From Candidatus Bipolaricaulota bacterium (GTDB taxonomy: Bacteria; Bipolaricaulota; Bipolaricaulia; M55B111), in the NCBI GenBank assembly GCA_018400715.1, contig JAGYME010000002.1, forward strand, positions 21,374 to 85,373: a DNA stretch of 64,000 nt. Reading direction: 5' to 3'. This document shows positions 2,370 to 63,985 of the stretch, piece after piece (positions within the stretch are counted from its first letter, which is position 1; every line of letters starts with the position of its first letter). The position numbers were made by a program, and so were the translations under genes. Under the pieces are notes generated by a model. It ran no database searches. It saw only the letters and a list, made by a program, of their open reading frames with translations, and was not told the origin of the DNA.

Positions 2370-5300
2370 ATGTTGTCTAGCGACAATAGCATGCTGAGCG
2401 GCGACGATATAGAAGAAGTAAAATTATTGTTTGCTTCCCCCGAGGAGATAAGAGGGTGGTCTCATGGCGAGGTTACCGAGTCGGAGACGATTAATTATCG
2501 TACACACAAGCCCGAAAAGGGAGGTCTCTATGCCGAGGAGATTTTCGGCCCCGAGGAGGATTATAAGTGCGCCTGTGGAAAGTACGAAGGGAAGAAGTAC
2601 GAGGGGATTACCTGCGAAAAGTGTGGCGTGCTGGTGACGGATTCTTCCGTCAGGCGGAAGAACATGGGGCATATCGAGTTGGCGAGTCCCGTAATACATT
2701 TCTGGTTTCTAAAGGGCATCTCCAGCCCGCTGAGTAAGCTCCTTGACGTCAAGAAGAAGACGCTGAGAAAGATCGCTTATTACGAGGCGGAGACGACGCT
2801 CGAGGATATCTACATAGTGACCTCTGCGGAGGACGATTCCGTCAGGGAAAACGAGATGCTCTACAGTTCGGAACTCGACATCCTTGAGCCCGTTATCGAT
2901 TTCGAGACCGAGGACGGAATAATTATCAACGACGCTCCACCCGTTGAAGCGGAGGAAGCGGGGGTCGTATCGATCGAACATAAGAAACTTCAGAACGGCG
3001 AAGGCGTAAAGCTCCTCTCCGTGGGTGACGTGGAATATCCCGTCGCCGAGGACGTCGTTCTCGAGGTCACGGAGGGTGACGAGATAGACGAAGGTGACCT
3101 TATCGCCGAGTCGCCGGTGGGCGAGATCTGCACGGAGACCTTCTACGAGATGCTCTCTTCTCGGTACGAGGAAGTCGAAGGTGAGGTCGCCCAGGAAGAG
3201 GTCGACAACTTGGCTTTTCTGGTTACCAAAGTTAACGACGATGACGTTCCTCTCGAGGTCGGACAAAAGATCGCCCAGCTCGAGAAGGAAGCTTACGAAC
3301 GCCTTTACCCGACGGGTTTCTCTGCCTACACTGGGGCCCAGGGAATCAAGGGTCTACTGGAAAACATCGACCTGGACCAGCTGAGCAACAAGCTGAATAG
3401 TCAGCTGGACCGGGAGACGTCAATTACGGCCAGGAACAAGTTGTCCAAGCGCCTCAGCGTGGTTGAAAAACTCAAGGACTCAGGCAATAAACCGAGTTAC
3501 ATCGCGCTTGAAGCCATTCCAGTGCTGCCACCGGACCTCCGGCCCATAGTGCACCTGGAAGGGGGAAAGTTCGCAACTACCGACCTCAACGACCTGTATC
3601 GCCGTATAATAAACAGGAACAACAGGTTGAAGAGACTGGAGGACATGGGCGCTCCCGAGGTAATCCTCCGGAACGAGAGGAGGATGTTACAGGAGTCCGT
3701 TGATGCCCTCATCCATAACGAGAAGAAGAATACACCCATCAGGGGAAAGGACGACAGGCCGCTCAAGTCGTTATCCGATAGGATATCTGGTAAACACGGA
3801 CGGTTACGGCGCAACCTGCTGGGGAGGCGTGTTGACTACTCCGGACGGGCAGTCATAGTCGTGGACCCCAAGTTGAAGGTCTGGGAATGTGGCGTCCCCA
3901 AGAAGATGGCCCTGGAACTATTCAAGCCCTTCGTAACCCGCTACCTGGATGACACCACTTACTCTGATTACAACGAGATAAAGAACAAGGCGCTGGCAGG
4001 GGAACTACCCGACGTGCTCGATTACCTCGAGGAACTGCTAGAGGAAAGGCCGGTGCTGCTAAACCGCGCCCCCACCCTGCACAGGCTGGGAATAGAAGCC
4101 TTCGAGCCGAAGTTGGTCGATGGAAACGCCATTCACATCCACCCTCAAGTCTGCCCGCCTTACAACGCCGACTTTGACGGTGACCAGATGGCGATCCACC
4201 TCCCGCTTACCCGGGAGGCAGTACAGGAGTCGCGGGAGTTGATGCTATCTTCCCGTAACCTCCTCTCCCCGGCGGACGGTGGACCGCTGACGAAGCCGAC
4301 CCAGGACCAGATTTACGCCTTCTATTACCTCACCCAGGTCGATGAAGACGGCAAGGGCAAGGGAAAGTACTTCCGGAGCATCAGGGAGGCAGAGCGGGCT
4401 CACGAAAACGACGTCATCTCGCTCCATGCGCCCGTTAAGATCAGGATAGATGGAGAGGTAGTTGATACCACCCTTGGCAGGGCAAAGTTCAACGCCCTGT
4501 TCCCCGCGGACTTACGTGATTATGACAAGCAGTTTGAATCTTCAGACGTGTCGGAGATACTGATGGACGTCTTCGAGGAGTACGACAACGACAGGGTCGT
4601 CGAACTGCTCGACGAACTCAAGGAGCTTGGTTTTTCAGAGGCGACCGAATCCGCGCTGACTATCTCCACTAAAGATTGCCTGACCCCTGCTGAGAAATCG
4701 CACATCCTGGACCAGGCAAACCAGAGGGTTAGGAACATTACGGAGATGTTCGAGCAGGGACTGGCCTCGGAAGAAGAGAGGTCGTCATCGGTGGTGGATA
4801 TCTGGCACGAGACCGTAGACGAGATCGAGAACGCCACCATGAAGAACTTCTCGGACAACAAATTCAACCCCCTGCAGATGATGGTAGGGTCCGGAGCTAG
4901 AGGAAGCGCTGACCAGGTCAAACAGCTGGCCGGGATGAGGGGACTGATGGCCGATCCGTCAGGTGACGTCATCGAGATGCCAGTCAGGTCTAACTTTAGG
5001 GAAGGCCTGGACATGATGGAGTACTTCATATCCACCCACGGTGGTAGAAAAGGTACCGCGGATACCGCGTTGAAGACGGCGGACTCCGGCTATCTGACCC
5101 GGCGGCTGGTTGAAGCCGTGTCAAACATCGTCGTCCGCGAGGAGGACTGTGGGACGAACCGCGGGATAGAGATTGCCCCGTTGAGGTACGAGGGCGGCGA
5201 GATGATGGAAAGCATCGAGACTAGAATATATGGAAAGACTCTCGCCGAGCCGGTGATCGACCCCGAGGACGATAGAGTAATGGCCGAGAGGGGTGAACTC

Positions 5301-7349
5301 ATCGGCGATGACCTTGCCCGAGAGATCGGCGAGAAGAGCGTGGAGGTAGAGTCGGAAAGCTCTGACTTCCTGGACAAGGTAATTGGCACCTGTAGCGTCG
5401 ATGACGTGAGTGACCCCGAATCCGGCCGGGTAATCGTCCGGGCGGACGAAGTTATCGACCCACCCGAAGCGGAAGCATTGCAGGAGAGCGGAGTAGAAAA
5501 GATCGTCATCAGGCCAAGGATCGTCGTCAGATCCCCGCTAACCTGTGAGACGGAGAAGGGTGTATGCCAGGCCTGTTACGGGATGGATATGTCCACGCAC
5601 AAACGGATAAAGAAGGGCGTAGCGGCAGGAATAATCGCGGCGCAGTCGATTGGTGAGCCCGGGACACAGCTTACGATGAGGACCTTCCACTCCGGTGGTG
5701 TGGCCGGGGAAGATATTACCCAGGGTCTGCCCCGGGCGGAAGAGCTGTTTGAGGCGAGGAAGACTACGAAGAGCGCCCAGGCGACGATTACCGACATCGA
5801 GGGCCACGTAGTCGATATCACCGATACGGAACAGGGAAAAAGGGTAGAGATAGAGGGTGACGAACAGGAACTGACCGTGCCCGAGCCTCTATGTTTGGTC
5901 GGACCGGGCGACGAGTTGCCTCTGGGTGACGTAGTGGACAACACTAGTCCACACGCCGGGACGATCAGGATAGTTGAGGAGGAACATCAACAGGTTATGT
6001 ATCTGTTGATGAGCAGGTCAGACCGTTATTACGAGTTGCCGGAGGGAGTCGAACCAGTTGTCGAATCCGGTGACGCCGTGGCGAAGGGCGACAAACTCAC
6101 AGAGAGGTTTAAGTTGGAACAGGTACCCGCCAAGGAATCGGGGTCCGTGGACTGCGTCGATGAGGATGCCCGGTTGATTACTCTGGTAGACGAGGACGGC
6201 AAGTTCGTTGACCATCTGTTTCCGCCCATGGCTAAACCTCTGGTGGAAGAAGGTGAAGGCGTGGAAGAAGGTGAAGGCCTGATTGACGTGAAGGACCCGA
6301 TTCAGCTGAAGGCTGATAAGTCCGGGATCGTGGTCAGGGCACCTGAAAGGTTGATCCTATTTAACCCCGAGGAGGGTCTGAAGCGGATACCGTTGACGGA
6401 GTCAATGGTCCCCGCGGTCGTCGACGGAGAGGAGGTAAAGAAGGGCAAGACCCTGTTCAATCTCGATAGACCAGTAGATAGGGACCTGACCGTAGAGGAG
6501 GTCGAACCCGCTGGTGACGACTTGGTCAGGGTCCTTTACAGGTTCAAGGAACAGGTTACCCTTAAACACTCACCGATAGTTGGCCTGGGTGACAAGGTGA
6601 CCCCGGGACAGCAGTTATCCAAGGGAGTCATCCCGCCGCATAACCTGCTGGACAAGGCCGGTGTAGAGCGGACGTTTGATTATCTACTTACGGAAATTCA
6701 GAAGGTCTACAAGAGCCAGGGAGTCGACATTAACGATACTCATATCGAGACAATTGTCGCACAGATGTTAAACAACGTGATCGTGAGCAACCGTGGCGAC
6801 TCCGACTTGACGCAGAACGAACTGATTACGCTGGAAGAATTCCGCAACGTCGTCAAGGGCTTGAGAGAGAAGAACGAAGAGATAAGGGAAGAGCGAAAGA
6901 GGATAATCGGTAACGAAGTGGCTGACGACGTCTACAAGAGGGATCACCTCATAGCGCGAGAAGGGGAAACTATCACGGAAAGCCTGCTCGAACTGGCGCG
7001 GAGGACAGGAGTAAAGTCTCTTCCGATCATCGAGGACGGAGAACTCGTCGAAGTGAGGATATTGGATTACGTCCTGCCAGAAGGTGACCGGCAGTTACTC
7101 CGCATATCCAAGTCGGCCCTCAAGACCAAGGGCTGGTTGTCCGCGGCTTCGTTCCAAAGGACGACTTCGTCGCTGACAAACGCGGCATTGAGCGGACAGT
7201 CGGATAAGCTGCGCGGCCTGAAGCCTAATATAATAGTTGGAAAAAAGATAGCTGTTGGTAAGGGATTTGAAGATAGTCAGGAGAACGAGGAAGAAGACGG
7301 AGCCGAAGAAGCCGATTCAGAGCGAGACCCCTTGAATTCAACAGCTTGA
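2370..7349 (+). CDS. rpoC: DNA-directed RNA polymerase subunit beta-prime, 1659 aa with large lineage-specific insertions
   Basis: N-terminal Zn site CACGKY...[18 protein letters not shown], the catalytic [10 protein letters not shown] motif, trigger-loop [19 protein letters not shown]...[17 protein letters not shown], and C-terminal [11 protein letters not shown]. Confidence 0.97.
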
Positions 7350-57806: not shown

Positions 57807-59477
<1,671 letters not shown>

Positions 59478-59492
59478 CTAGAGTTAATAGAG

Positions 59493-59768
59493 TTATTCAA
59501 TCTTGGCGAGAATGTTGTTCTCTTTGACTATCTTCATCTCGCGGCCGTCCATTTCGATTTCCGTCCCGGAAAAGCTGGACAAAATAACTGTATCTCCGAC
59601 ACCGACCTCGATCTTCTCATCTGTACCCACTGCCAGTACCTCTGCCTTGGTGTAGTTATCCTCTTCCCTGGCGCTGTCGGGTAAAACAATTCCTCCCTCG
59701 GTAACTTCCTCTTCCTCGACTTCGATCTTCTCGACGAGCACTCTTCTGCCTAATGGTTTAATATCCAT
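59493..59768 (-). CDS. groES: Co-chaperonin GroES
   Basis: MDIKPLGRRVLVEKIE...GGIVLPDSA. ATG at 59768 preceded by GAGGAGG; the ORF-track start at 59828 is upstream of the SD. Confidence 0.95.
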   Translation of the reverse strand: MDIKPLGRRVLVEKIEVEEEEVTEGGIVLPDSAREEDNYTKAEVLAVGTDEKIEVGVGDTVILSSFSGTEIEMDGREMKIVKENNILAKIE

Positions 59769-59828
59769 TGATACCTCCTCACTTGTTATTGTTATTGGTT
59801 GTTGAATTTTCTCGCATAACTCTAACAA

Positions 59829-59855
59829 TTAGCACTCTTGGATAGTGACTGCTAA
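59829..59855 (-). promoter_or_regulatory. CIRCE operator (HrcA binding site) of the groESL operon
   Basis: TTAGCACTC-N9-GACTGCTAA, one mismatch from the consensus inverted repeat TTAGCACTC-N9-GAGTGCTAA. It lies between the predicted promoter and groES. Confidence 0.8.
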
Positions 59856-59864
59856 ATCAACAAA

Positions 59865-59893
59865 AGTTTAACCAATCAACCCCCACCAGTCAA
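59865..59893 (-). promoter_or_regulatory. Putative sigma-70-type groESL promoter
   Basis: Minus strand TTGACT-17 nt-TAAACT, immediately upstream of CIRCE. Confidence 0.5.
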
Positions 59894-60012
59894 CCCCCAT
59901 TCAACGATTATTTAACTGAGATTTATGGTGACGGGAAACTTTTATACCTAGCGGGATAGAGTGCCCCGCCAGTGCCTTTGATTTTGGTTGTGATTGTGAT
60001 ATCATTCTAAGT

Positions 60013-60894
60013 ATGATAGGAGGTGTGATTTTGGACAACGAACAAGAATGTTGTTCTGTTATTTGGCTACAAGGCGCAACTTGCACCGGTTGCGCGATAT
60101 CTCTGATGAACTCCAATTATCCTAGATTATCCAACCTACTCCTTGACGAGGTCGTACCAGGGGGGTCAATTTCCCTGAAGTTTATGGCCACGTTGATGGG
60201 TGCAACCGGTGACCTTGCCCTTGAAGTGTTGAGCCGTGCTGAAGCGGAAGGCGATTACCTGGTGGTGATGGAAGGAGCCGTGCCGACGGGCGAAGACGGC
60301 AGGTATTGTATGGTAGGAGAAAAGTCCGTCGCTGACCAACTTTCCGAAGCTGCTCCCGGTGCTAGAGCGGTCGTAAGCGTGGGCACCTGTGCCGCGTACG
60401 GAGGGATTCCCGCTGGCGAGCCGAATCCAACTGAAGCGATTTCGGCGGCCGAACACCTCGAGACGGAGGGGATAGATACTCCCTGTCTGAACGTCCCCGG
60501 TTGTCCTCCCGAACCGAGCTGGTTCGTGGACAGCCTGGCGACGGTCATGTTGTTTGGCCTCCCCGGCCCCGAGGACCTGGACGACGTCGGGCGGTTGAAG
60601 TCCGTTTACGGAGAACTGATACACGATAACTGTCCCCGGCGCGCGGACTTCCAGAACGGCCACTACGCGCGTCATATCGGCGACGAGGGCTGTTTGGTCG
60701 AAGTTGGATGTAAGGGGCCTTATGTAAACGCGCCCTGCCCGAATAGAGGCTGGCATGAAGGTCTCAACTGGGCGATAAAAAACAATCATCCCTGTATTGG
60801 ATGTGTGGAGCCGGGTTTTCCCGACCTGATGGGACCGTTTTTTGAGAAATATGGCCCGGAGGAATCCGAGGAGATGTACAGGAGGCTAAAGTGA
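60013..60894 (+). CDS. [NiFe]-hydrogenase small subunit, cytoplasmic (no Tat signal)
   Basis: WLQGATCTGCAISL, GTCAAYGG, PGCPP, HDNCPRR, GCKGPYVNAPCP, HPCIGCVEPGFPD cluster-ligand motifs. GGAGGT at 60019-60024 suggests the real start may be TTG 60031. Confidence 0.92.
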   Translation: MIGGVILDNEQECCSVIWLQGATCTGCAISLMNSNYPRLSNLLLDEVVPGGSISLKFMATLMGATGDLALEVLSRAEAEGDYLVVMEGAVPTGEDGRYCMVGEKSVADQLSEAAPGARAVVSVGTCAAYGGIPAGEPNPTEAISAAEHLETEGIDTPCLNVPGCPPEPSWFVDSLATVMLFGLPGPEDLDDVGRLKSVYGELIHDNCPRRADFQNGHYARHIGDEGCLVEVGCKGPYVNAPCPNRGWHEGLNWAIKNNHPCIGCVEPGFPDLMGPFFEKYGPEESEEMYRRLK

Positions 60895-62405
60895 AACAGA
60901 TTACCATAGATCCGGTTACGCGTATAGAGGGACACCTGAAGATAGAGACCGACGTTGAGGGGGACGAGGTAAAGGCCGCGAGGAGTAGCGGTACTCTATT
61001 CAGGGGGTTCGAGCAGATACTGGTCGGACGGGACCCGAGAGACGCGCAGAGGATCACGCAGAGGGTATGTGGGGTCTGTCCAACGGCTCACGCTACGGCC
61101 TCTTCGCTGGCACTCGAGGACGCATTTGGGATAAAAGACGAGGTCCCGCCTAACGGTAGGCTGATCAAGAATATCATGCTAGGGGCGAATTTCATTCAGT
61201 CTCACGTTCTTCACTTCTACCACCTGGCGGCGTTGGACTACCTGGACCCGGAACGAGTGACCGAGGTCACCGAATGCGGGCCCCAGGTTGATGCGCTGGC
61301 AAATTTCCTCAGGAACACGGATGGTGCGCCATTTGAACCGCAGTACGAGGGAGATTACCGGCTTGGGCCCGAGATAAGCACCGACCTCTGCCGGGATTAC
61401 CTCGACGGCCTGGATATCAGGAAGAAGGCACACGAACTTCTGGCCCTGTTTGGTGCGAAGATGCCCCACAACATGGGGACCGTTCCCGGAGGATCGACCA
61501 AGAAGCCGGAGGTGGGGACGATCGAGAAGGCCGAGGCTCGGTTGAAGGAAATAAGTTGCTTTATCAACAATAGGTATCTCCCCGGGGCCCTTGCTCTGGT
61601 AGAAGCGTACGACGACTACTTCGAAGTCGGCCAGGGCGTCGACACGTTCCTTGAGTACGGGGGGTTCTACCTGGATAAGGTAGGGGAGGTCCCTCAGGAT
61701 GCTCCGGTCGGTCTTCTTGGCGGAGTCTTCAGCCTTGATGACTACGGAGTCGAGGACGTGGACTTGAGTGAAATTACGGAAGAGGTGACCCACTCCTGGT
61801 ACGCGGAATCTACAGCGGGTCATCCCACGAAGGTAAAGACAAGTCCGGACGCTGATAAGGAAGGAGCCTATTCCTGGGTCAAGGCGCCGCGGTATAGAGG
61901 GCAACCCTGTGAAGTCGGCCCGGCGGCCAGGATAATGATCAACTACAGCCGGGGAAATGAATACATCAAGGGAAGGATGGACGAGATCATGGGAAAACTG
62001 GACATCGGACTGAAGGACTGTGCCTCCGTTGCGGGAAGGCATTTGGCCCGGGCGCTCGAGTGTAAATACATAGCCGATCTCATGAAGGATTGGATAGAGG
62101 AACTGGAGCCCGGTGCACCGTCTGTGGCAAAGTACGATATGCCAGACGAAGGGACCGGAATGGGCGTAACCAGTGCCCCCCGCGGAACGCTGGGACACTG
62201 GATCGAGGTCAAGGACGGAGAGATAGAAAACTATCAGATGGTCGTGCCTACAACCTGGAACGCTTCACCCAGGGACGGAAAAGGTAGGCCCGGTCCAATC
62301 GAGCAGGCTTTGATTGGTACGAGGATTGAGGACGGGGATAATCCGATCGAGGCTGCCAGGATAGTCCGTTCCTTCGATCCATGTATGGCCTGCGCGGTCC
62401 ATTGA
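60891..62405 (+). CDS. [NiFe]-hydrogenase large (catalytic) subunit
   Basis: IDPVTRIEGHL, N-terminal RVCGVCPTAH (RxCGxC) and C-terminal DPCMACAVH Ni-Fe ligand motifs. GTGA overlap with the small-subunit stop. Confidence 0.95.
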   Translation: MKQITIDPVTRIEGHLKIETDVEGDEVKAARSSGTLFRGFEQILVGRDPRDAQRITQRVCGVCPTAHATASSLALEDAFGIKDEVPPNGRLIKNIMLGANFIQSHVLHFYHLAALDYLDPERVTEVTECGPQVDALANFLRNTDGAPFEPQYEGDYRLGPEISTDLCRDYLDGLDIRKKAHELLALFGAKMPHNMGTVPGGSTKKPEVGTIEKAEARLKEISCFINNRYLPGALALVEAYDDYFEVGQGVDTFLEYGGFYLDKVGEVPQDAPVGLLGGVFSLDDYGVEDVDLSEITEEVTHSWYAESTAGHPTKVKTSPDADKEGAYSWVKAPRYRGQPCEVGPAARIMINYSRGNEYIKGRMDEIMGKLDIGLKDCASVAGRHLARALECKYIADLMKDWIEELEPGAPSVAKYDMPDEGTGMGVTSAPRGTLGHWIEVKDGEIENYQMVVPTTWNASPRDGKGRPGPIEQALIGTRIEDGDNPIEAARIVRSFDPCMACAVH

Positions 62406-62429
62406 CCTTTACCGATAGGAGGTATAACA

Positions 62430-63110
62430 ATGATATTATCTGAACCGAAGCCTTGGGAAGAGATAGAGGGTTATCTCGAAGAGGACGACTCCGTTTTTCT
62501 GCTCGGATGTGACGGATGCGACGCTGCCACCGGTGATGGTGGCGCAGAAAGGGTTGGAGAGTTGTCCGAGAAGCTCGAAGAGGGAGGATGGGACGTCACG
62601 GGGACGAAGGTGATCGAGTTCCTCTGCAACAAGGCACTTGCTGGAATGAAGCTCGCTCGAGTTTCCGATCTAGTTGAAGCGAGCGACTCACTGTTGGTCT
62701 CCTGTTGTGGTATCGGTGTGCAGGCAGTAAGTAAACTCGTGGACAAGCAGGTACACCCTGCCAACGATACCGTGTCCATGGGTGACTTCCACGGCACCTG
62801 GCCCTCCGAAGAAACGTGTAAGAGGTGCGGTGAGTGTCTGCTGGACTATACGGGAGGAATATGTCCGCTGACAATGTGTGTTAAGGGCCTGTTAAATGGC
62901 GCATGTGGCGGATCTTACGAAGGAAGGTGTGAGGTAGAGCCCGATCGACCCTGCGGCTGGGAGTTAATCTATGAGAGGCTCAGGGACGTCGGTCGGTTGG
63001 ACCTGCTCGAGGAGTACAACCCTCCGAAGGCAAGGCAAAAATACCAGTTTGGAGTTCCTATGGAGAACAGGAATTCTCTCTACTGGGCACTTGAGGCGGA
63101 GGAGGAATAA
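62430..63110 (+). CDS. metV: MetV, zinc-ribbon/FeS subunit of acetogen-type methylenetetrahydrofolate reductase (MTHFR_C domain)
   Basis: CKRCGECLLDYTGGICPLTMCVKGLLNGACGGSYEGRCEV..DRPCGW cysteine pattern typical of MetV. AGGAGG SD. Confidence 0.85.
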   Translation: MILSEPKPWEEIEGYLEEDDSVFLLGCDGCDAATGDGGAERVGELSEKLEEGGWDVTGTKVIEFLCNKALAGMKLARVSDLVEASDSLLVSCCGIGVQAVSKLVDKQVHPANDTVSMGDFHGTWPSEETCKRCGECLLDYTGGICPLTMCVKGLLNGACGGSYEGRCEVEPDRPCGWELIYERLRDVGRLDLLEEYNPPKARQKYQFGVPMENRNSLYWALEAEEE

Positions 63111-63985
63111 TGAGCACGCTAAAAGATAAACTCGAAGCTGGTGAGTTCGCGATTACGTGTGAGGCAGGGCCACCCAAGGGAGTGGATGTCGAGGAAGAGA
63201 TTAAGGAGGTCGAGGAGATAGCGGATTTAGTCGACGCGTTCAACGTGACCGACCTACAGTCCTCCGCCATGCGGATGAGCTCAGTCGCCATGTGTCGGCT
63301 GCTCGAGGAAAGGGGTCTGGAGACAGTCTACCAGATGACCTGTCGGGATAGAAATCGTCTTGCGCTTCAGTCGTCTCTGCTCGGTGCCTGGGCGCTGGGT
63401 ATGGAGAACGTCCTGGCCCTGACCGGCGACTACACTACGTTAGGAGATCATCCGGACGCGATGCCCGTCTTTGACCTGGACTCTGTCCAGTTGCTCGAGA
63501 CGATAGGGGCGCTGAACGGAGGAGAGGACATGGTCGGAAACGAACTAGAGGGTTCACCTCAATTCTTTCCGGGTGCGGCTGCCAACCCCGGAGCGGACCC
63601 CCTCAAGCCCCAGATCCTCAAGAGCAGGATGAAGGCGGACCACGGAGCGCGATTCTTCCAGACTCAGGCCGTCTACGACCCCGAGGTATTTGCTACATTC
63701 ATGGAAGAACTCAGGGATGCCGGCGTGGAGACTCCCGTGATGGTCGGGATCCTCCCGCTGAAATCAGCAGGAATGGCCAGATTCATGGACGCCAATATCG
63801 CGGGCGTGGTAATACCGGATGTGGTAATAAAGGAACTGTCCGATGCCGACGACGCCGTTCAGAAGAGCATTGAGATCTGCTCCCGTGTGATAAACGAGAC
63901 GGCGGACCTCTGTGAAGGGATTCACCTGATGCCGATGGGATGGGAAGAGTACGTACCGGAGATTCTTGACGGGACGAAGCTATAA
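63110..63985 (+). CDS. metF: Methylenetetrahydrofolate reductase MetF (acetogen type)
   Basis: FAITCEAGPPKG, DAFNVTDLQSSAMRMSS, QMTCRDRNRLALQSSLLGAWALGMENVLALTGD. TAATG overlap with metV. Confidence 0.92.
   Translation: MSTLKDKLEAGEFAITCEAGPPKGVDVEEEIKEVEEIADLVDAFNVTDLQSSAMRMSSVAMCRLLEERGLETVYQMTCRDRNRLALQSSLLGAWALGMENVLALTGDYTTLGDHPDAMPVFDLDSVQLLETIGALNGGEDMVGNELEGSPQFFPGAAANPGADPLKPQILKSRMKADHGARFFQTQAVYDPEVFATFMEELRDAGVETPVMVGILPLKSAGMARFMDANIAGVVIPDVVIKELSDADDAVQKSIEICSRVINETADLCEGIHLMPMGWEEYVPEILDGTKL

What the first reader, a model, noticed from the sequence alone, without database searches (positions are those of the whole stretch)
60013..63985. Cytoplasmic [NiFe]-hydrogenase chained directly to acetogen-type MetV-MetF: candidate H2-linked methylene-THF reductase module
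Seen in sequence:
- Four same-strand genes are packed as one unit. The small and large subunits overlap by GTGA.
- A 24-nt gap containing AGGAGG precedes metV.
- metV and metF overlap by TAATG.
- The unit follows a 245-nt divergent region shared with groESL, so it appears to be the start of an operon.

Established knowledge: the electron donor of MetFV-type methylene-THF reductases is an open problem. Characterised contexts are MetFV alone, MetFV plus an RnfC2-like subunit (Acetobacterium woodii), and MetFV plus HdrCBA-MvhD (Moorella, Sporomusa). I do not know of a described arrangement in which a hydrogenase heterodimer sits immediately upstream of metVF.

Inference: the hydrogenase may feed H2-derived electrons into the MTHFR step of a Wood-Ljungdahl pathway. 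Alternatively it may act as an H2 sensor for these genes.
Basis: partly seen in the sequence, partly recalled or inferred. Interest (0 to 1): 0.72.

Follow-up and report, generated by a model that had tools for sequence, protein, structure and literature searches.

The report
Cytoplasmic hydrogenase wired to folate reductase
A four-gene operon in a salt-adapted Bipolaricaulota bacterium joins a hydrogenase that has lost its export signal to the MetV-MetF methylene-tetrahydrofolate reductase, and the same pairing recurs in over 40 loci from many phyla, which makes H2 a testable candidate for this enzyme's long-sought electron partner.

Summary
Four same-strand genes (small subunit, large subunit, metV, metF) lie at 60013-63985, with the stated GTGA overlap, 24-nt AGGAGG spacer and TAATG overlap. 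The host is Candidatus Bipolaricaulota.

The hydrogenase is most similar to periplasmic group 1a [NiFeSe]-type enzymes. It differs in having Cys instead of Sec, no Tat signal and no C-terminal extension on the large subunit.

No hdrABC or mvhD follows. In the 89%-identical relative the operon ends at a convergent kinase gene.

The pairing is strongly conserved. Among evaluable related loci, 38 Tat-less hydrogenases all sit next to metV or metF, and 31 Tat-bearing ones never do. Linked loci come from about ten differently labelled lineages. They are often embedded in Wood-Ljungdahl operons (fhs-folD-...-acsD; acsC-acsE-...) or methyltransferase (MttB) operons.

The best reading is a soluble H2:methylene-THF oxidoreductase module. 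Direction, stoichiometry and possible electron bifurcation are untested.

It is not undescribed. A 2024 Great Salt Lake study (PMC11287216) notes HysAB next to MetVF in Bipolaricaulia in one sentence, with the same hypothesis. I did not find its multi-phylum breadth or the linked loss of the Tat signal described. The H2-sensor alternative is rejected.

The parts
59978..60005 (+). Promoter-like element TTGATT-16 nt-TATCAT with TG extension, upstream of the small-subunit gene
   Evidence: Consensus scan. An equivalent TTGAAT-16-TATCAT with TG sits at the same place in the 89%-identical relative L001. This is a consensus match only and has not been shown to function.
60013..60894 (+). [NiFe]-hydrogenase small subunit, Tat-less. 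The likely true start is TTG 60031, preceded by AGGAGG at 60019-60024.
   Evidence: PF01058 + PF14720. TIGR00391 scores 219.6 bits against a cutoff of 179.5. The best solved relative is the Desulfomicrobium baculatum [NiFeSe] small subunit 1cc1_S, E 4e-65. No RRxFLK signal is present. The distal-cluster His-x2-Cys is present, and the fourth medial-cluster Cys of 1cc1 (NWC) is Ala here.
60891..62405 (+). [NiFe]-hydrogenase large subunit, 504 aa. It ends exactly at DPCMACAVH, with no C-terminal extension and Cys rather than Sec.
   Evidence: PF00374, E 1e-147. NF033181 scores 629.9 bits against a cutoff of 600. The best solved relatives are periplasmic [NiFeSe] hydrogenases 5jsu_B, 4kl8_L and 1cc1_L, E about 1e-123 to 1e-125. 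The RVCGVCPTAH and DPCMACAVH motifs are present. It is 89% identical to a Ca. Bipolaricaulota protein.
62406..62429 (+). 24-nt spacer carrying the Shine-Dalgarno AGGAGG for metV. No terminator-like site was detected.
   Evidence: Sequence and terminator scan. A 24-25 nt spacer is kept in relatives L001 and L004.
62430..63110 (+). MetV, the Cys-rich iron-sulfur subunit of MetVF-type methylene-THF reductase
   Evidence: PF12225, E 5e-31. Twelve Cys are invariant in 31 homologues: 27, 30, 66, 93, 130, 133, 136, 145, 150, 159, 167 and 175. It is 95% identical to a Ca. Bipolaricaulota protein.
63110..63985 (+). MetF, the flavin-binding catalytic subunit of methylene-THF reductase
   Evidence: PF02219 full length, E 5e-40. 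It aligns with Thermus MTHFR 1v93, including the E..PPK and L..GD motifs. Its start is translationally coupled to metV (TAATG).

Best explanation
The four genes encode one soluble cytoplasmic redox module, an H2:methylene-tetrahydrofolate oxidoreductase.

A [NiFe] hydrogenase descended from periplasmic group 1a enzymes has lost its Tat export signal. In this lineage it has also lost the protease-cleaved C-terminal tail of the large subunit.

The proposed electron path is as follows. H2 is split at the Ni-Fe site. Electrons pass along the three iron-sulfur clusters of the small subunit and leave at the His-ligated distal cluster. They enter the Cys-rich MetV, which has 12 invariant Cys, and reach the flavin of MetF. 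[quoted passage not shown]

The hydrogenase would thus take the place held by RnfC2 (NADH) in Acetobacterium or by HdrABC-MvhD in Moorella.

Shown: gene identities, operon structure, cytoplasmic location, intact metal-binding motifs, and strict conservation of the pairing.

Inferred: physical complex formation, the electron path, and the direction. The same module could run backwards, from methyl-THF oxidation to H2, where H2 is kept very low.
For: 1. Identities and tight coupling of the four genes.

2. Synteny is kept with unrelated flanks in Bipolaricaulota relatives with 59-89% identical large subunits.

3. In a scan of GTDB species genomes, small subunit-large subunit-(HycI)-MetV-MetF occurred in all 37 linked loci listed. 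Record titles name Anaerolineae, Dehalococcoidia, Fraserbacteria, Poribacteria, Aerophobetes, Actinomycetota, Planctomycetota, Desulfobacteraceae and Hebobacteria.

4. The 2x2 table reads: Tat-less and linked 38; Tat and unlinked 31; the other two cells are 0.

5. An independent probe from the MetV side gave the same result. Three of three long contigs carrying 53-57% identical MetV have the hydrogenase immediately upstream. Two further large-subunit hits do too.

6. The pair is embedded in C1 operons:
   - Fhs-FolD-SSU-LSU-HycI-MetV-MetF-AcsD-CODH (L011).
   - CODH-ACS-AcsC-AcsE-SSU-LSU-MetV-MetF-DUF3786 (L029, L089).
   - L006 lies next to the CODH/ACS cluster.

7. A group 1a enzyme in the cytoplasm lacks its usual periplasmic partner (established knowledge: cytochrome c3). 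MetV and MetF are the only invariant neighbours.

8. Purified MetFV enzymes carry FMN and Fe-S clusters, do not use NAD(P)H, and their physiological donor 'remains enigmatic'. Coupling of MetFV to a hydrogenase (Ech) has already been hypothesised (PMC8578170).

9. The same idea was proposed from genomes of Great Salt Lake Bipolaricaulia (PMC11287216).
Against: - There is no biochemical, proteomic or transcript evidence for this locus or any homologue. Linkage shows a shared function, not a shared complex.

- Energetics (my own calculation from standard potentials, H2 -414 mV and CH2-THF/CH3-THF -200 mV). Direct coupling dissipates about 41 kJ/mol without conservation. In an Acetobacterium-type electron budget it leaves no surplus ferredoxin for Rnf, so it looks wasteful for a hydrogen-grown acetogen.

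- Some linked loci sit in methyltransferase operons (MttB, corrinoid protein, RACo). These supply methyl-THF directly and would need the reductase to run in reverse.

- Several lineages add NuoE/NuoF-like or GltD-HdrA-like genes next to the module. The four-gene form may therefore not be the complete enzyme everywhere.

- Whether this genome has a second, Hdr-linked MetVF cannot be seen from a 64-kb window.
Confidence: 0.58

Rival explanations
1. The module runs mainly in reverse. MetVF oxidises methyl-THF, derived from methylated amines, glycine betaine or acetyl-CoA cleavage, and the hydrogenase disposes of the electrons as H2. The H2 is removed by partners or recaptured by other hydrogenases in the same cell.
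For: - The module lies inside methyltransferase operons in L088 (MttB-MttB-Pterin_bind-corrinoid-RACo-SSU-LSU-MetV-MetF-Fhs) and L093 (…MetF-UROD-MttB).
- The closest solved relatives are [NiFeSe]-type enzymes, which are known to be good H2 producers (my knowledge).
- The host proteome is very acidic, which indicates a hypersaline habitat, and glycine betaine is abundant in such habitats (my knowledge).
Against: - By my calculation, methyl-THF oxidation with protons is endergonic by about 41 kJ/mol under standard conditions. It needs H2 near or below about 0.01-1 Pa, depending on the methyl/methylene-THF ratio.
- Most linked loci sit in CODH/ACS or fhs-folD operons without methyltransferases.
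- No methyltransferase genes occur in this window.
Confidence: 0.15
2. The complex is electron-bifurcating or confurcating without Hdr: 2 H2 + methylene-THF + oxidised ferredoxin gives methyl-THF + reduced ferredoxin. A flavin would act as the bifurcating centre, so the exergonic folate reduction pays for ferredoxin reduction.
For: - It would remove the energetic waste of direct coupling, and it is thermodynamically feasible by my calculation: mean acceptor potential about -350 mV against -414 mV for H2.
- It is analogous to MvhADG-HdrABC.
- Related loci carry NuoE/NuoF-like or GltD-HdrA-like genes beside the module, which hints at extra redox partners in some lineages.
Against: - The four-gene form has only the MetF flavin.
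- Purified MetFV enzymes showed no bifurcation in vitro (PMC8578170).
- No ferredoxin gene or additional flavoprotein gene is in the operon here or in the close relative L001.
Confidence: 0.1
3. The genes are co-regulated but the proteins are not physically coupled. The hydrogenase reduces a diffusible carrier such as ferredoxin, which then serves MetVF and other enzymes.
For: - MetFV enzymes accept electrons from reduced ferredoxin in vitro.
- Operon membership alone does not prove a complex.
Against: - By my reasoning, H2 at -414 mV reduces ferredoxin poorly without bifurcation.
- The linkage is specific to MetV/MetF rather than to ferredoxin-dependent enzymes in general, with a 38:0 / 0:31 split.
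- Gene order and spacing are tightly kept, with MetV always next to the hydrogenase or its protease.
Confidence: 0.12
4. The hydrogenase is a regulatory H2 sensor that controls expression of metVF or the pathway.
For: - The large subunit lacks the C-terminal extension, as sensor hydrogenases do.
- A two-component system lies downstream in L001. Histidine kinase and response regulator genes are interleaved in the Anaerolineae loci.
Against: - The closest families and structures are catalytic group 1a enzymes.
- Most members of the linked clade keep the extension and a HycI protease.
- Kinase genes are absent from many linked loci (L004, L006, L011, L029, L089).
- In L001 the kinase is convergent and not in the operon.
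Confidence: 0.03

Closest known systems
HysAB-MetVF adjacency noted in Great Salt Lake Ca. Bipolaricaulia (PMC11287216, 2024)
   Same: Same phylum and same arrangement: a group 1a hydrogenase next to MetVF. The same hypothesis is given, that the hydrogenase supplies electrons for MTHF reduction.
   Different: That paper gives one sentence. It has no analysis of Tat loss, C-terminal extension, distribution outside the phylum, or operon contexts, and no experiment. Whether its genomes are close to this window was not tested.
HdrABC-MvhD-MetFV methylene-THF reductase (Moorella thermoacetica type; also marine Chloroflexi and Oman type I Acetothermia)
   Same: A MetV+MetF core joined in one gene cluster to an electron-input module related to hydrogen metabolism.
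   Different: No hdrA/B/C or mvhD genes are present here or in close relatives. The partner is a complete Ni-Fe hydrogenase heterodimer of group 1a type, not group 3c: the VhuA model matches only the first 117 residues at 111 bits against a cutoff of 800.
MetF-MetV-RnfC2 NADH-dependent reductase of Acetobacterium woodii, and MetFV-only enzymes (Clostridium ljungdahlii, Thermoanaerobacter kivui, Eubacterium callanderi)
   Same: The same two-subunit reductase core with FMN and Fe-S clusters. For the MetFV-only type the donor is unresolved, and an Ech hydrogenase-MetFV link has been hypothesised.
   Different: Here a hydrogenase is encoded in the same operon directly upstream. There is no RnfC2-like gene in the four-gene form. 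NuoE/NuoF-like genes do occur beside the module in Dehalococcoidia loci.
Periplasmic [NiFeSe]/[NiFe] group 1a hydrogenases (Desulfovibrio vulgaris Hys, Desulfomicrobium baculatum; PDB 5jsu, 1cc1, 4kl8)
   Same: These are the best sequence matches for both subunits. The Ni-Fe binding motifs, the proximal cluster ligands and the His-ligated distal cluster ligands are the same.
   Different: No Tat signal, so cytoplasmic. Cys instead of Sec. No C-terminal extension and no protease gene in this lineage. The fourth Cys of the medial cluster is replaced by Ala. The partner is MetVF instead of a periplasmic cytochrome.
Hydrogenases hard-wired to a C1-pathway reductase: F420-reducing hydrogenase FrhABG and hydrogen-dependent CO2 reductase (HDCR)
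   Same: The concept is shared: a hydrogenase module plus Fe-S wire plus a catalytic subunit that reduces a C1-pathway substrate or cofactor directly with H2. This is an analogy from my own knowledge. HDCR is described in the paper list.
   Different: The hydrogenase classes differ (group 3a [NiFe]; [FeFe]) and so do the acceptors. There is no homology of the acceptor modules to MetVF.

Membership tests
[NiFe]-hydrogenase, group 1a (periplasmic 'ancestral'/[NiFeSe]-type uptake hydrogenases) | Large subunit with N-terminal RxCGxCxxxH and C-terminal DPCxxCxxH Ni-Fe binding motifs | tested here: met
   RVCGVCPTAH and DPCMACAVH are present. All four Cys are invariant in 31 homologues.
[NiFe]-hydrogenase, group 1a (periplasmic 'ancestral'/[NiFeSe]-type uptake hydrogenases) | Closest sequence similarity to recognised group 1a enzymes | tested here: met
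   The best PDB matches for both subunits are D. vulgaris and Dm. baculatum [NiFeSe] hydrogenases. NF033181 is above its cutoff. The HydDB classifier itself could not be run. PMC11287216 reports group 1a for the MetVF-adjacent Bipolaricaulia enzyme.
[NiFe]-hydrogenase, group 1a (periplasmic 'ancestral'/[NiFeSe]-type uptake hydrogenases) | Twin-arginine (Tat) signal on the small subunit, giving periplasmic location | tested here: not met
   No RRxFLK motif is present, and only about 6-12 residues precede the first cluster-binding motif. The same holds for all 38 evaluable MetVF-linked relatives, whereas 31 unlinked relatives have the signal.
[NiFe]-hydrogenase, group 1a (periplasmic 'ancestral'/[NiFeSe]-type uptake hydrogenases) | C-terminal extension of the large subunit removed by a HycI/HybD-type endopeptidase | tested here: not met
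   The protein ends at the His of DPCMACAVH. No protease gene is in the operon here or in L001-L008. Most other linked loci have a 15-aa extension plus a PF01750 gene.
[NiFe]-hydrogenase, group 1a (periplasmic 'ancestral'/[NiFeSe]-type uptake hydrogenases) | Three Fe-S clusters in the small subunit, with the medial cluster [4Fe-4S] in [NiFeSe]-type enzymes | tested here: inconclusive
   The CxGC pair of the proximal cluster and the distal ligands (His + 3 Cys) align with 1cc1_S; the other two proximal Cys were not examined. The fourth medial Cys (NWC in 1cc1) is Ala here and Pro in L004, L006 and L008. This suggests a [3Fe-4S] medial cluster. Cluster type cannot be decided from sequence.
MetVF-type methylene-THF reductase (acetogen type) | MetF with a full MTHFR domain, plus a separate MetV with the PF12225 Cys-rich domain encoded immediately upstream | tested here: met
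   PF02219 matches residues 4-287 and PF12225 matches residues 110-201. The genes overlap in TAATG. Twelve Cys are invariant in MetV.
MetVF-type methylene-THF reductase (acetogen type) | FMN and Fe-S cofactors; no use of NAD(P)H; activity with low-potential donors | not testable with these tools
   These are biochemical properties known from purified T. kivui MetFV. They cannot be read from sequence.
HdrABC-MvhD-MetFV complex (Moorella type) | hdrA, hdrB, hdrC and mvhD genes in the same cluster as metVF | tested here: not met
   None are present in the window unit. In L001, L004 and L006 the genes following metF are a convergent kinase, a 149-aa ORF or the CODH/ACS cluster. No Hdr genes lie in the core of 37 linked loci.
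Regulatory (H2-sensing) [NiFe]-hydrogenase, group 2b | Closest similarity to HupUV/HoxBC-type sensors, and conserved coupling to a histidine kinase | tested here: not met
   The top family and structure matches are group 1a catalytic enzymes. Kinase genes are absent from many linked loci.

The most novel reading that the evidence does not exclude
The Tat-less, MetVF-linked hydrogenases would form a previously unrecognised functional subgroup of [NiFe] hydrogenases. With MetVF, this subgroup would form an Hdr-independent, flavin-based electron-bifurcating H2:methylene-THF/ferredoxin oxidoreductase. That enzyme would be the missing energy-conserving electron input for MetFV-type reductases in uncultured acetogen-like bacteria of many phyla.
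Probability: 0.1. Interest if true: 0.9.

Novelty: new variant of a known kind. Interest (0 to 1): 0.66.

Why it matters
The physiological electron partner of MetFV-type methylene-THF reductases is an acknowledged open problem in acetogen bioenergetics (PMC8578170: 'remains enigmatic'). This step largely decides whether the Wood-Ljungdahl pathway yields net ATP.

This locus and more than 40 relatives offer a natural, minimal, four-gene candidate answer: a soluble hydrogenase encoded in the same operon. It can be cloned and assayed directly.

It also shows that a lineage of 'periplasmic respiratory' group 1 hydrogenases moved into the cytoplasm and became tied to one-carbon metabolism. The lineages concerned are abundant, uncultured subsurface and hypersaline groups (Bipolaricaulota, Dehalococcoidia, Anaerolineae and others). 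This affects how H2 use and acetogenesis or methyl oxidation are inferred from metagenomes.

The value is tempered in two ways. The adjacency has been mentioned once before, and the mechanism remains inference.

Tried and rejected
- **Exact look-up of the window's MetF.** Not on record. The contig beyond 64000 therefore had to be inferred from the 89% relative L001.

- **Downstream hdrCBA-mvhD.** Looked for and not found in any close relative.

- **H2-sensor reading.** Rejected (see rival explanations).

- **Phylogeny.** Two neighbour-joining trees of large subunits were built.
  - The main linked clade, together with a nested Tat-bearing Desulfuromonadales group, had 79% bootstrap support.
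  - The Bipolaricaulota clade had 100%.
  - Their union had only 21%, so a single versus double origin of the linkage is unresolved. No maximum-likelihood program or HydDB reference set was available.
  - By pairwise distance, the 20 nearest non-Bipolaricaulota large subunits are all from linked loci.

- **MetV structure.**
  - There is no sequence relative in the PDB.
  - The AlphaFold2 model had mean pLDDT 76, with a confident alpha/beta N-terminal domain and a poorly modelled Cys-rich part.
  - Foldseek against the PDB gave only generic Rossmann-like matches with E > 0.005. This was uninformative.

- **Multimer prediction of small subunit plus MetV.** Not possible with the single-chain tool.

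- **Literature.** Nine searches found no description of the module other than PMC11287216. Papers that looked promising describe only Hdr-linked MetVF or periplasmic HysAB: PMC9586279, PMC7325909, PMC5736913, PMC2702500, PMC10689502, PMC6305446, PMC10553843 and PMC11227167. Subscription-only papers, such as Youssef et al. 2019 on Bipolaricaulota, could not be searched.

- **GTDB scan.** The counts are therefore a sample, not a census.

Full report
**1. Observation**

The window carries four + strand ORFs at 60013-60894, 60891-62405, 62430-63110 and 63110-63985.

- Pfam assigns them to the [NiFe] small subunit (PF01058 + PF14720), the large subunit (PF00374, E 1e-147), MetV (PF12225) and MetF (PF02219).
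- No terminator-like site lies between the hydrogenase and metV.
- Upstream is a divergent spacer of about 244 nt to groES-groEL.
- A promoter-like TTGATT-16-TATCAT with TG extension lies at 59978-60005. It is conserved at the same place in the closest relative.
- The small-subunit start is probably TTG 60031, which has AGGAGG 6 nt upstream and gives the 287 aa called in several relatives. ATG 60013 has no Shine-Dalgarno sequence.

**2. Organism and surroundings**

- The large subunit is 89% identical, and MetV 95% identical, to proteins of Candidatus Bipolaricaulota.
- All proteins checked are strongly acidic, with pI 4.3-5.2 (4.3-4.9 for all but the patatin-like protein). This indicates a salt-adapted organism.
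- The rest of the window is housekeeping: RpoC, DnaE, RtcB, peptide ABC transporter, sigma factor, topoisomerase. It contains no other Wood-Ljungdahl, methyltransferase or hydrogenase-maturation genes.

**3. What lies beyond 64000**

- The exact MetF is not on record.
- In the 89% relative (L001, GCA_046538225.1) the same groESL-divergent four-gene unit is followed, after 77 nt, by a convergent histidine kinase and response regulator.
- There is no hdrABC, mvhD or ferredoxin gene. The unit is therefore a four-gene operon and does not reduce to the Mvh/Hdr-MetFV type.

**4. The hydrogenase**

- Both subunits are closest to periplasmic group 1a [NiFeSe] hydrogenases of Desulfovibrio vulgaris and Desulfomicrobium baculatum. 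NCBIfam NF033181 is passed at 630 bits against a cutoff of 600.
- The group 3c (Vhu/Mvh) and group 3/4 models match only the N-terminal third.
- The Ni-Fe motifs are intact, and Cys replaces Sec.
- Three departures from group 1a were tested.
  - There is no Tat signal.
  - The large subunit ends at the last His of DPCMACAVH. It has no cleavable extension, and no protease gene is in the operon.
  - The fourth Cys of the medial cluster of 1cc1 is Ala here, which suggests a [3Fe-4S] medial cluster.
- The His-Cys3 distal cluster, the usual electron exit, is conserved.

**5. Conservation of the pairing**

- Bipolaricaulota relatives with 59-89% identical large subunits keep SSU-LSU-MetV-MetF with quite different flanks. 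L006/L007 lie next to the CODH/ACS cluster.
- A scan of one genome per GTDB species with a large-subunit alignment returned 80 loci.
- Searching their six-frame ORFs with the four window proteins showed MetV and/or MetF within a few kb of the hydrogenase, usually directly after it or after a protease gene, in essentially every locus whose large subunit is about 50% or more identical. MetV/MetF were absent from the more distant loci.
- Among evaluable loci, 38 have a Tat-less small subunit and are linked, and 31 have a Tat signal and are unlinked. No locus falls in the mixed classes.
- Linked loci carry record titles naming Anaerolineae, Dehalococcoidia, Chloroflexota, Fraserbacteria, Poribacteria, Aerophobetes, Actinomycetota, Planctomycetota, Desulfobacteraceae, Hebobacteria and Bipolaricaulia.
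- Where the large subunit keeps a 15-aa extension, a HycI protease gene (PF01750) sits between it and metV, or after metF.
- Where the extension is lost, the protease gene is absent and the gap is 4-56 nt. This applies to the Bipolaricaulota clade and to L025, L028, L029, L031, L032 and L034.
- Probing independently from MetV gave the same result. All three long contigs carrying 53-57% identical MetV have the hydrogenase directly upstream.

**6. Operon contexts**

The pair is often embedded in one-carbon operons.

- Fhs-FolD-SSU-LSU-HycI-MetV-MetF-AcsD-CODH (L011).
- CODH-ACS-AcsC-AcsE-SSU-LSU-MetV-MetF-DUF3786 (L029, L031, L032, L089).
- AcsC-NuoE-NuoF-CooC-SSU-LSU-HycI-MetV-MetF-DUF3786 (five Dehalococcoidia loci and L091, the last followed by hypABFCDE).
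- FolD-SSU-LSU-MetV-MetF (L028, L034, L047).
- MttB-MttB-Pterin_bind-corrinoid protein-RACo-SSU-LSU-MetV-MetF-Fhs (L088, another Bipolaricaulota), and …MetF-UROD-MttB (L093).

The Anaerolineae loci interleave a kinase and two response regulators and add a 1311-aa GltD-HdrA-like protein and a second MetV/MetF pair.

**7. Phylogeny**

Neighbour-joining trees support a main linked clade that contains a nested Tat-bearing Desulfuromonadales group (79% bootstrap) and a separate Bipolaricaulota clade (100%). Joining the two has only 21% support. The 20 nearest non-Bipolaricaulota sequences to the window enzyme are all from linked loci. Whether the link arose once or twice is unresolved.

**8. MetV and MetF**

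- MetV has 12 invariant Cys in two groups, 4 + 8. That is enough for the Fe-S clusters reported for purified MetFV (7.2 Fe; two [4Fe-4S] predicted).
- It has no solved relative.
- Its model is confident only for an alpha/beta N-terminal domain, and the fold search was uninformative.
- MetF aligns with Thermus MTHFR, including the E..PPK and L..GD motifs.

**9. Mechanism**

The most economical reading is a soluble complex. H2 is oxidised at the Ni-Fe site, and electrons pass through the small-subunit clusters to MetV and then to the MetF flavin, which reduces methylene-THF.

- A cytoplasmic group 1a enzyme lacks its usual periplasmic cytochrome partner (my knowledge). MetV and MetF are its only invariant neighbours.
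- MetFV enzymes do not use NAD(P)H, and their donor is called enigmatic. A link to an Ech hydrogenase has been hypothesised.
- Caveats from my own calculation with standard potentials: direct coupling (-414 to -200 mV) wastes about 41 kJ/mol and would leave an Acetobacterium-type H2 + CO2 budget without surplus ferredoxin.
- The methyltransferase contexts argue that some lineages run the reductase backwards. That is feasible only at very low H2, or with confurcation of reduced ferredoxin.
- I therefore keep three rivals: the reverse direction, Hdr-independent bifurcation, and co-regulation without a complex. I reject the sensor idea.

**10. Prior knowledge and novelty**

- PMC11287216 (FEMS Microbiol Ecol 2024) reports, for two Great Salt Lake Ca. 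Bipolaricaulia populations, that the group 1a hydrogenase HysAB is adjacent to MetVF and may provide electrons for MTHF reduction.
- Nine full-text searches and eight further papers gave no other description. None mention the Tat loss, the coupled loss of the extension and protease, or the multi-phylum distribution.
- Relative to characterised systems, this is a new variant of the MetVF-type reductase with a different electron-input module. It is also an atypical, cytoplasmic offshoot of group 1a hydrogenases.
- It is experimentally uncharacterised.

**11. Verdict**

The functional link is strong, the mechanism and direction are inferred, and the claim of no prior description is wrong.
- Interest is 0.66. 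The module makes a long-standing question directly testable with a four-gene construct, and the conservation data are unusually clean. However, the idea has been voiced before, and a hydrogen link to MetFV through Mvh/Hdr is already familiar.

Noticed in passing
window 59829-59855: A CIRCE-like inverted repeat, TTAGCACTC-N9-GACTGCTAA, lies in the spacer upstream of groES on the minus strand. It has one mismatch to the HrcA operator consensus. It suggests HrcA heat-shock control of groESL, which shares the divergent region with the hydrogenase operon.
   Followed up: partly
window 57807-63985 and 2370-7349: All proteins checked are strongly acidic, with pI 4.3-5.2 and D+E up to 25% in GroES. 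This is the signature of a 'salt-in' halophile and fits a hypersaline origin for this Bipolaricaulota genome.
   Followed up: partly
window 62379-62405; loci L001-L008, L025, L028, L029, L031, L032, L034: The large subunit ends exactly at DPCxxCxxH with no C-terminal extension, and these loci also lack the HycI protease gene. Sister lineages keep a 15-aa extension plus HycI. This looks like coupled loss of a maturation step, which is unusual for group 1 hydrogenases.
   Followed up: partly
window about 60760-60770 (small subunit 'NWA'); loci: The fourth Cys ligand of the medial cluster of [NiFeSe]-type small subunits is Ala here. It is Pro in L004, L006 and L008, and Val or Ile in L010, L012, L020, L021 and in the other extension-less lineage. 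It is Cys in most other linked loci. The medial cluster type therefore probably differs between sub-lineages.
   Followed up: partly
L037, L038, L041, L042, L053 (Desulfuromonadales and related MAGs): A Tat-bearing group with reversed gene order (large subunit first, then HycI, then small subunit) and no metVF nests inside the otherwise Tat-less, MetVF-linked clade in the neighbour-joining trees. This is either a return to the periplasm or a tree artefact.
   Followed up: no
L009, L012, L016, L017, L039 (Anaerolineae and others): A variant layout was seen: GltD-HdrA-like 1311-aa protein, MetV-like, SSU, LSU, a cNMP-binding histidine kinase, MetF, two response regulators, then a second MetV-MetF pair. 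It has two reductase sets and signalling genes interleaved with the hydrogenase.
   Followed up: partly
L004 13227-13676, L006 13243-13692, L007 12222-12671: A conserved 149-aa ORF with no Pfam match follows metF in the 59-63% Bipolaricaulota relatives. It is absent from the closest relative L001. It could not be checked in the window, which ends 15 nt after metF.
   Followed up: no
window 2370-7349: RpoC is unusually long at 1659 aa, with large gaps between the Pfam Rpb1 domains: domain 1 spans residues 13-483 and domain 5 spans 879-1485. This suggests lineage-specific insertions.
   Followed up: no
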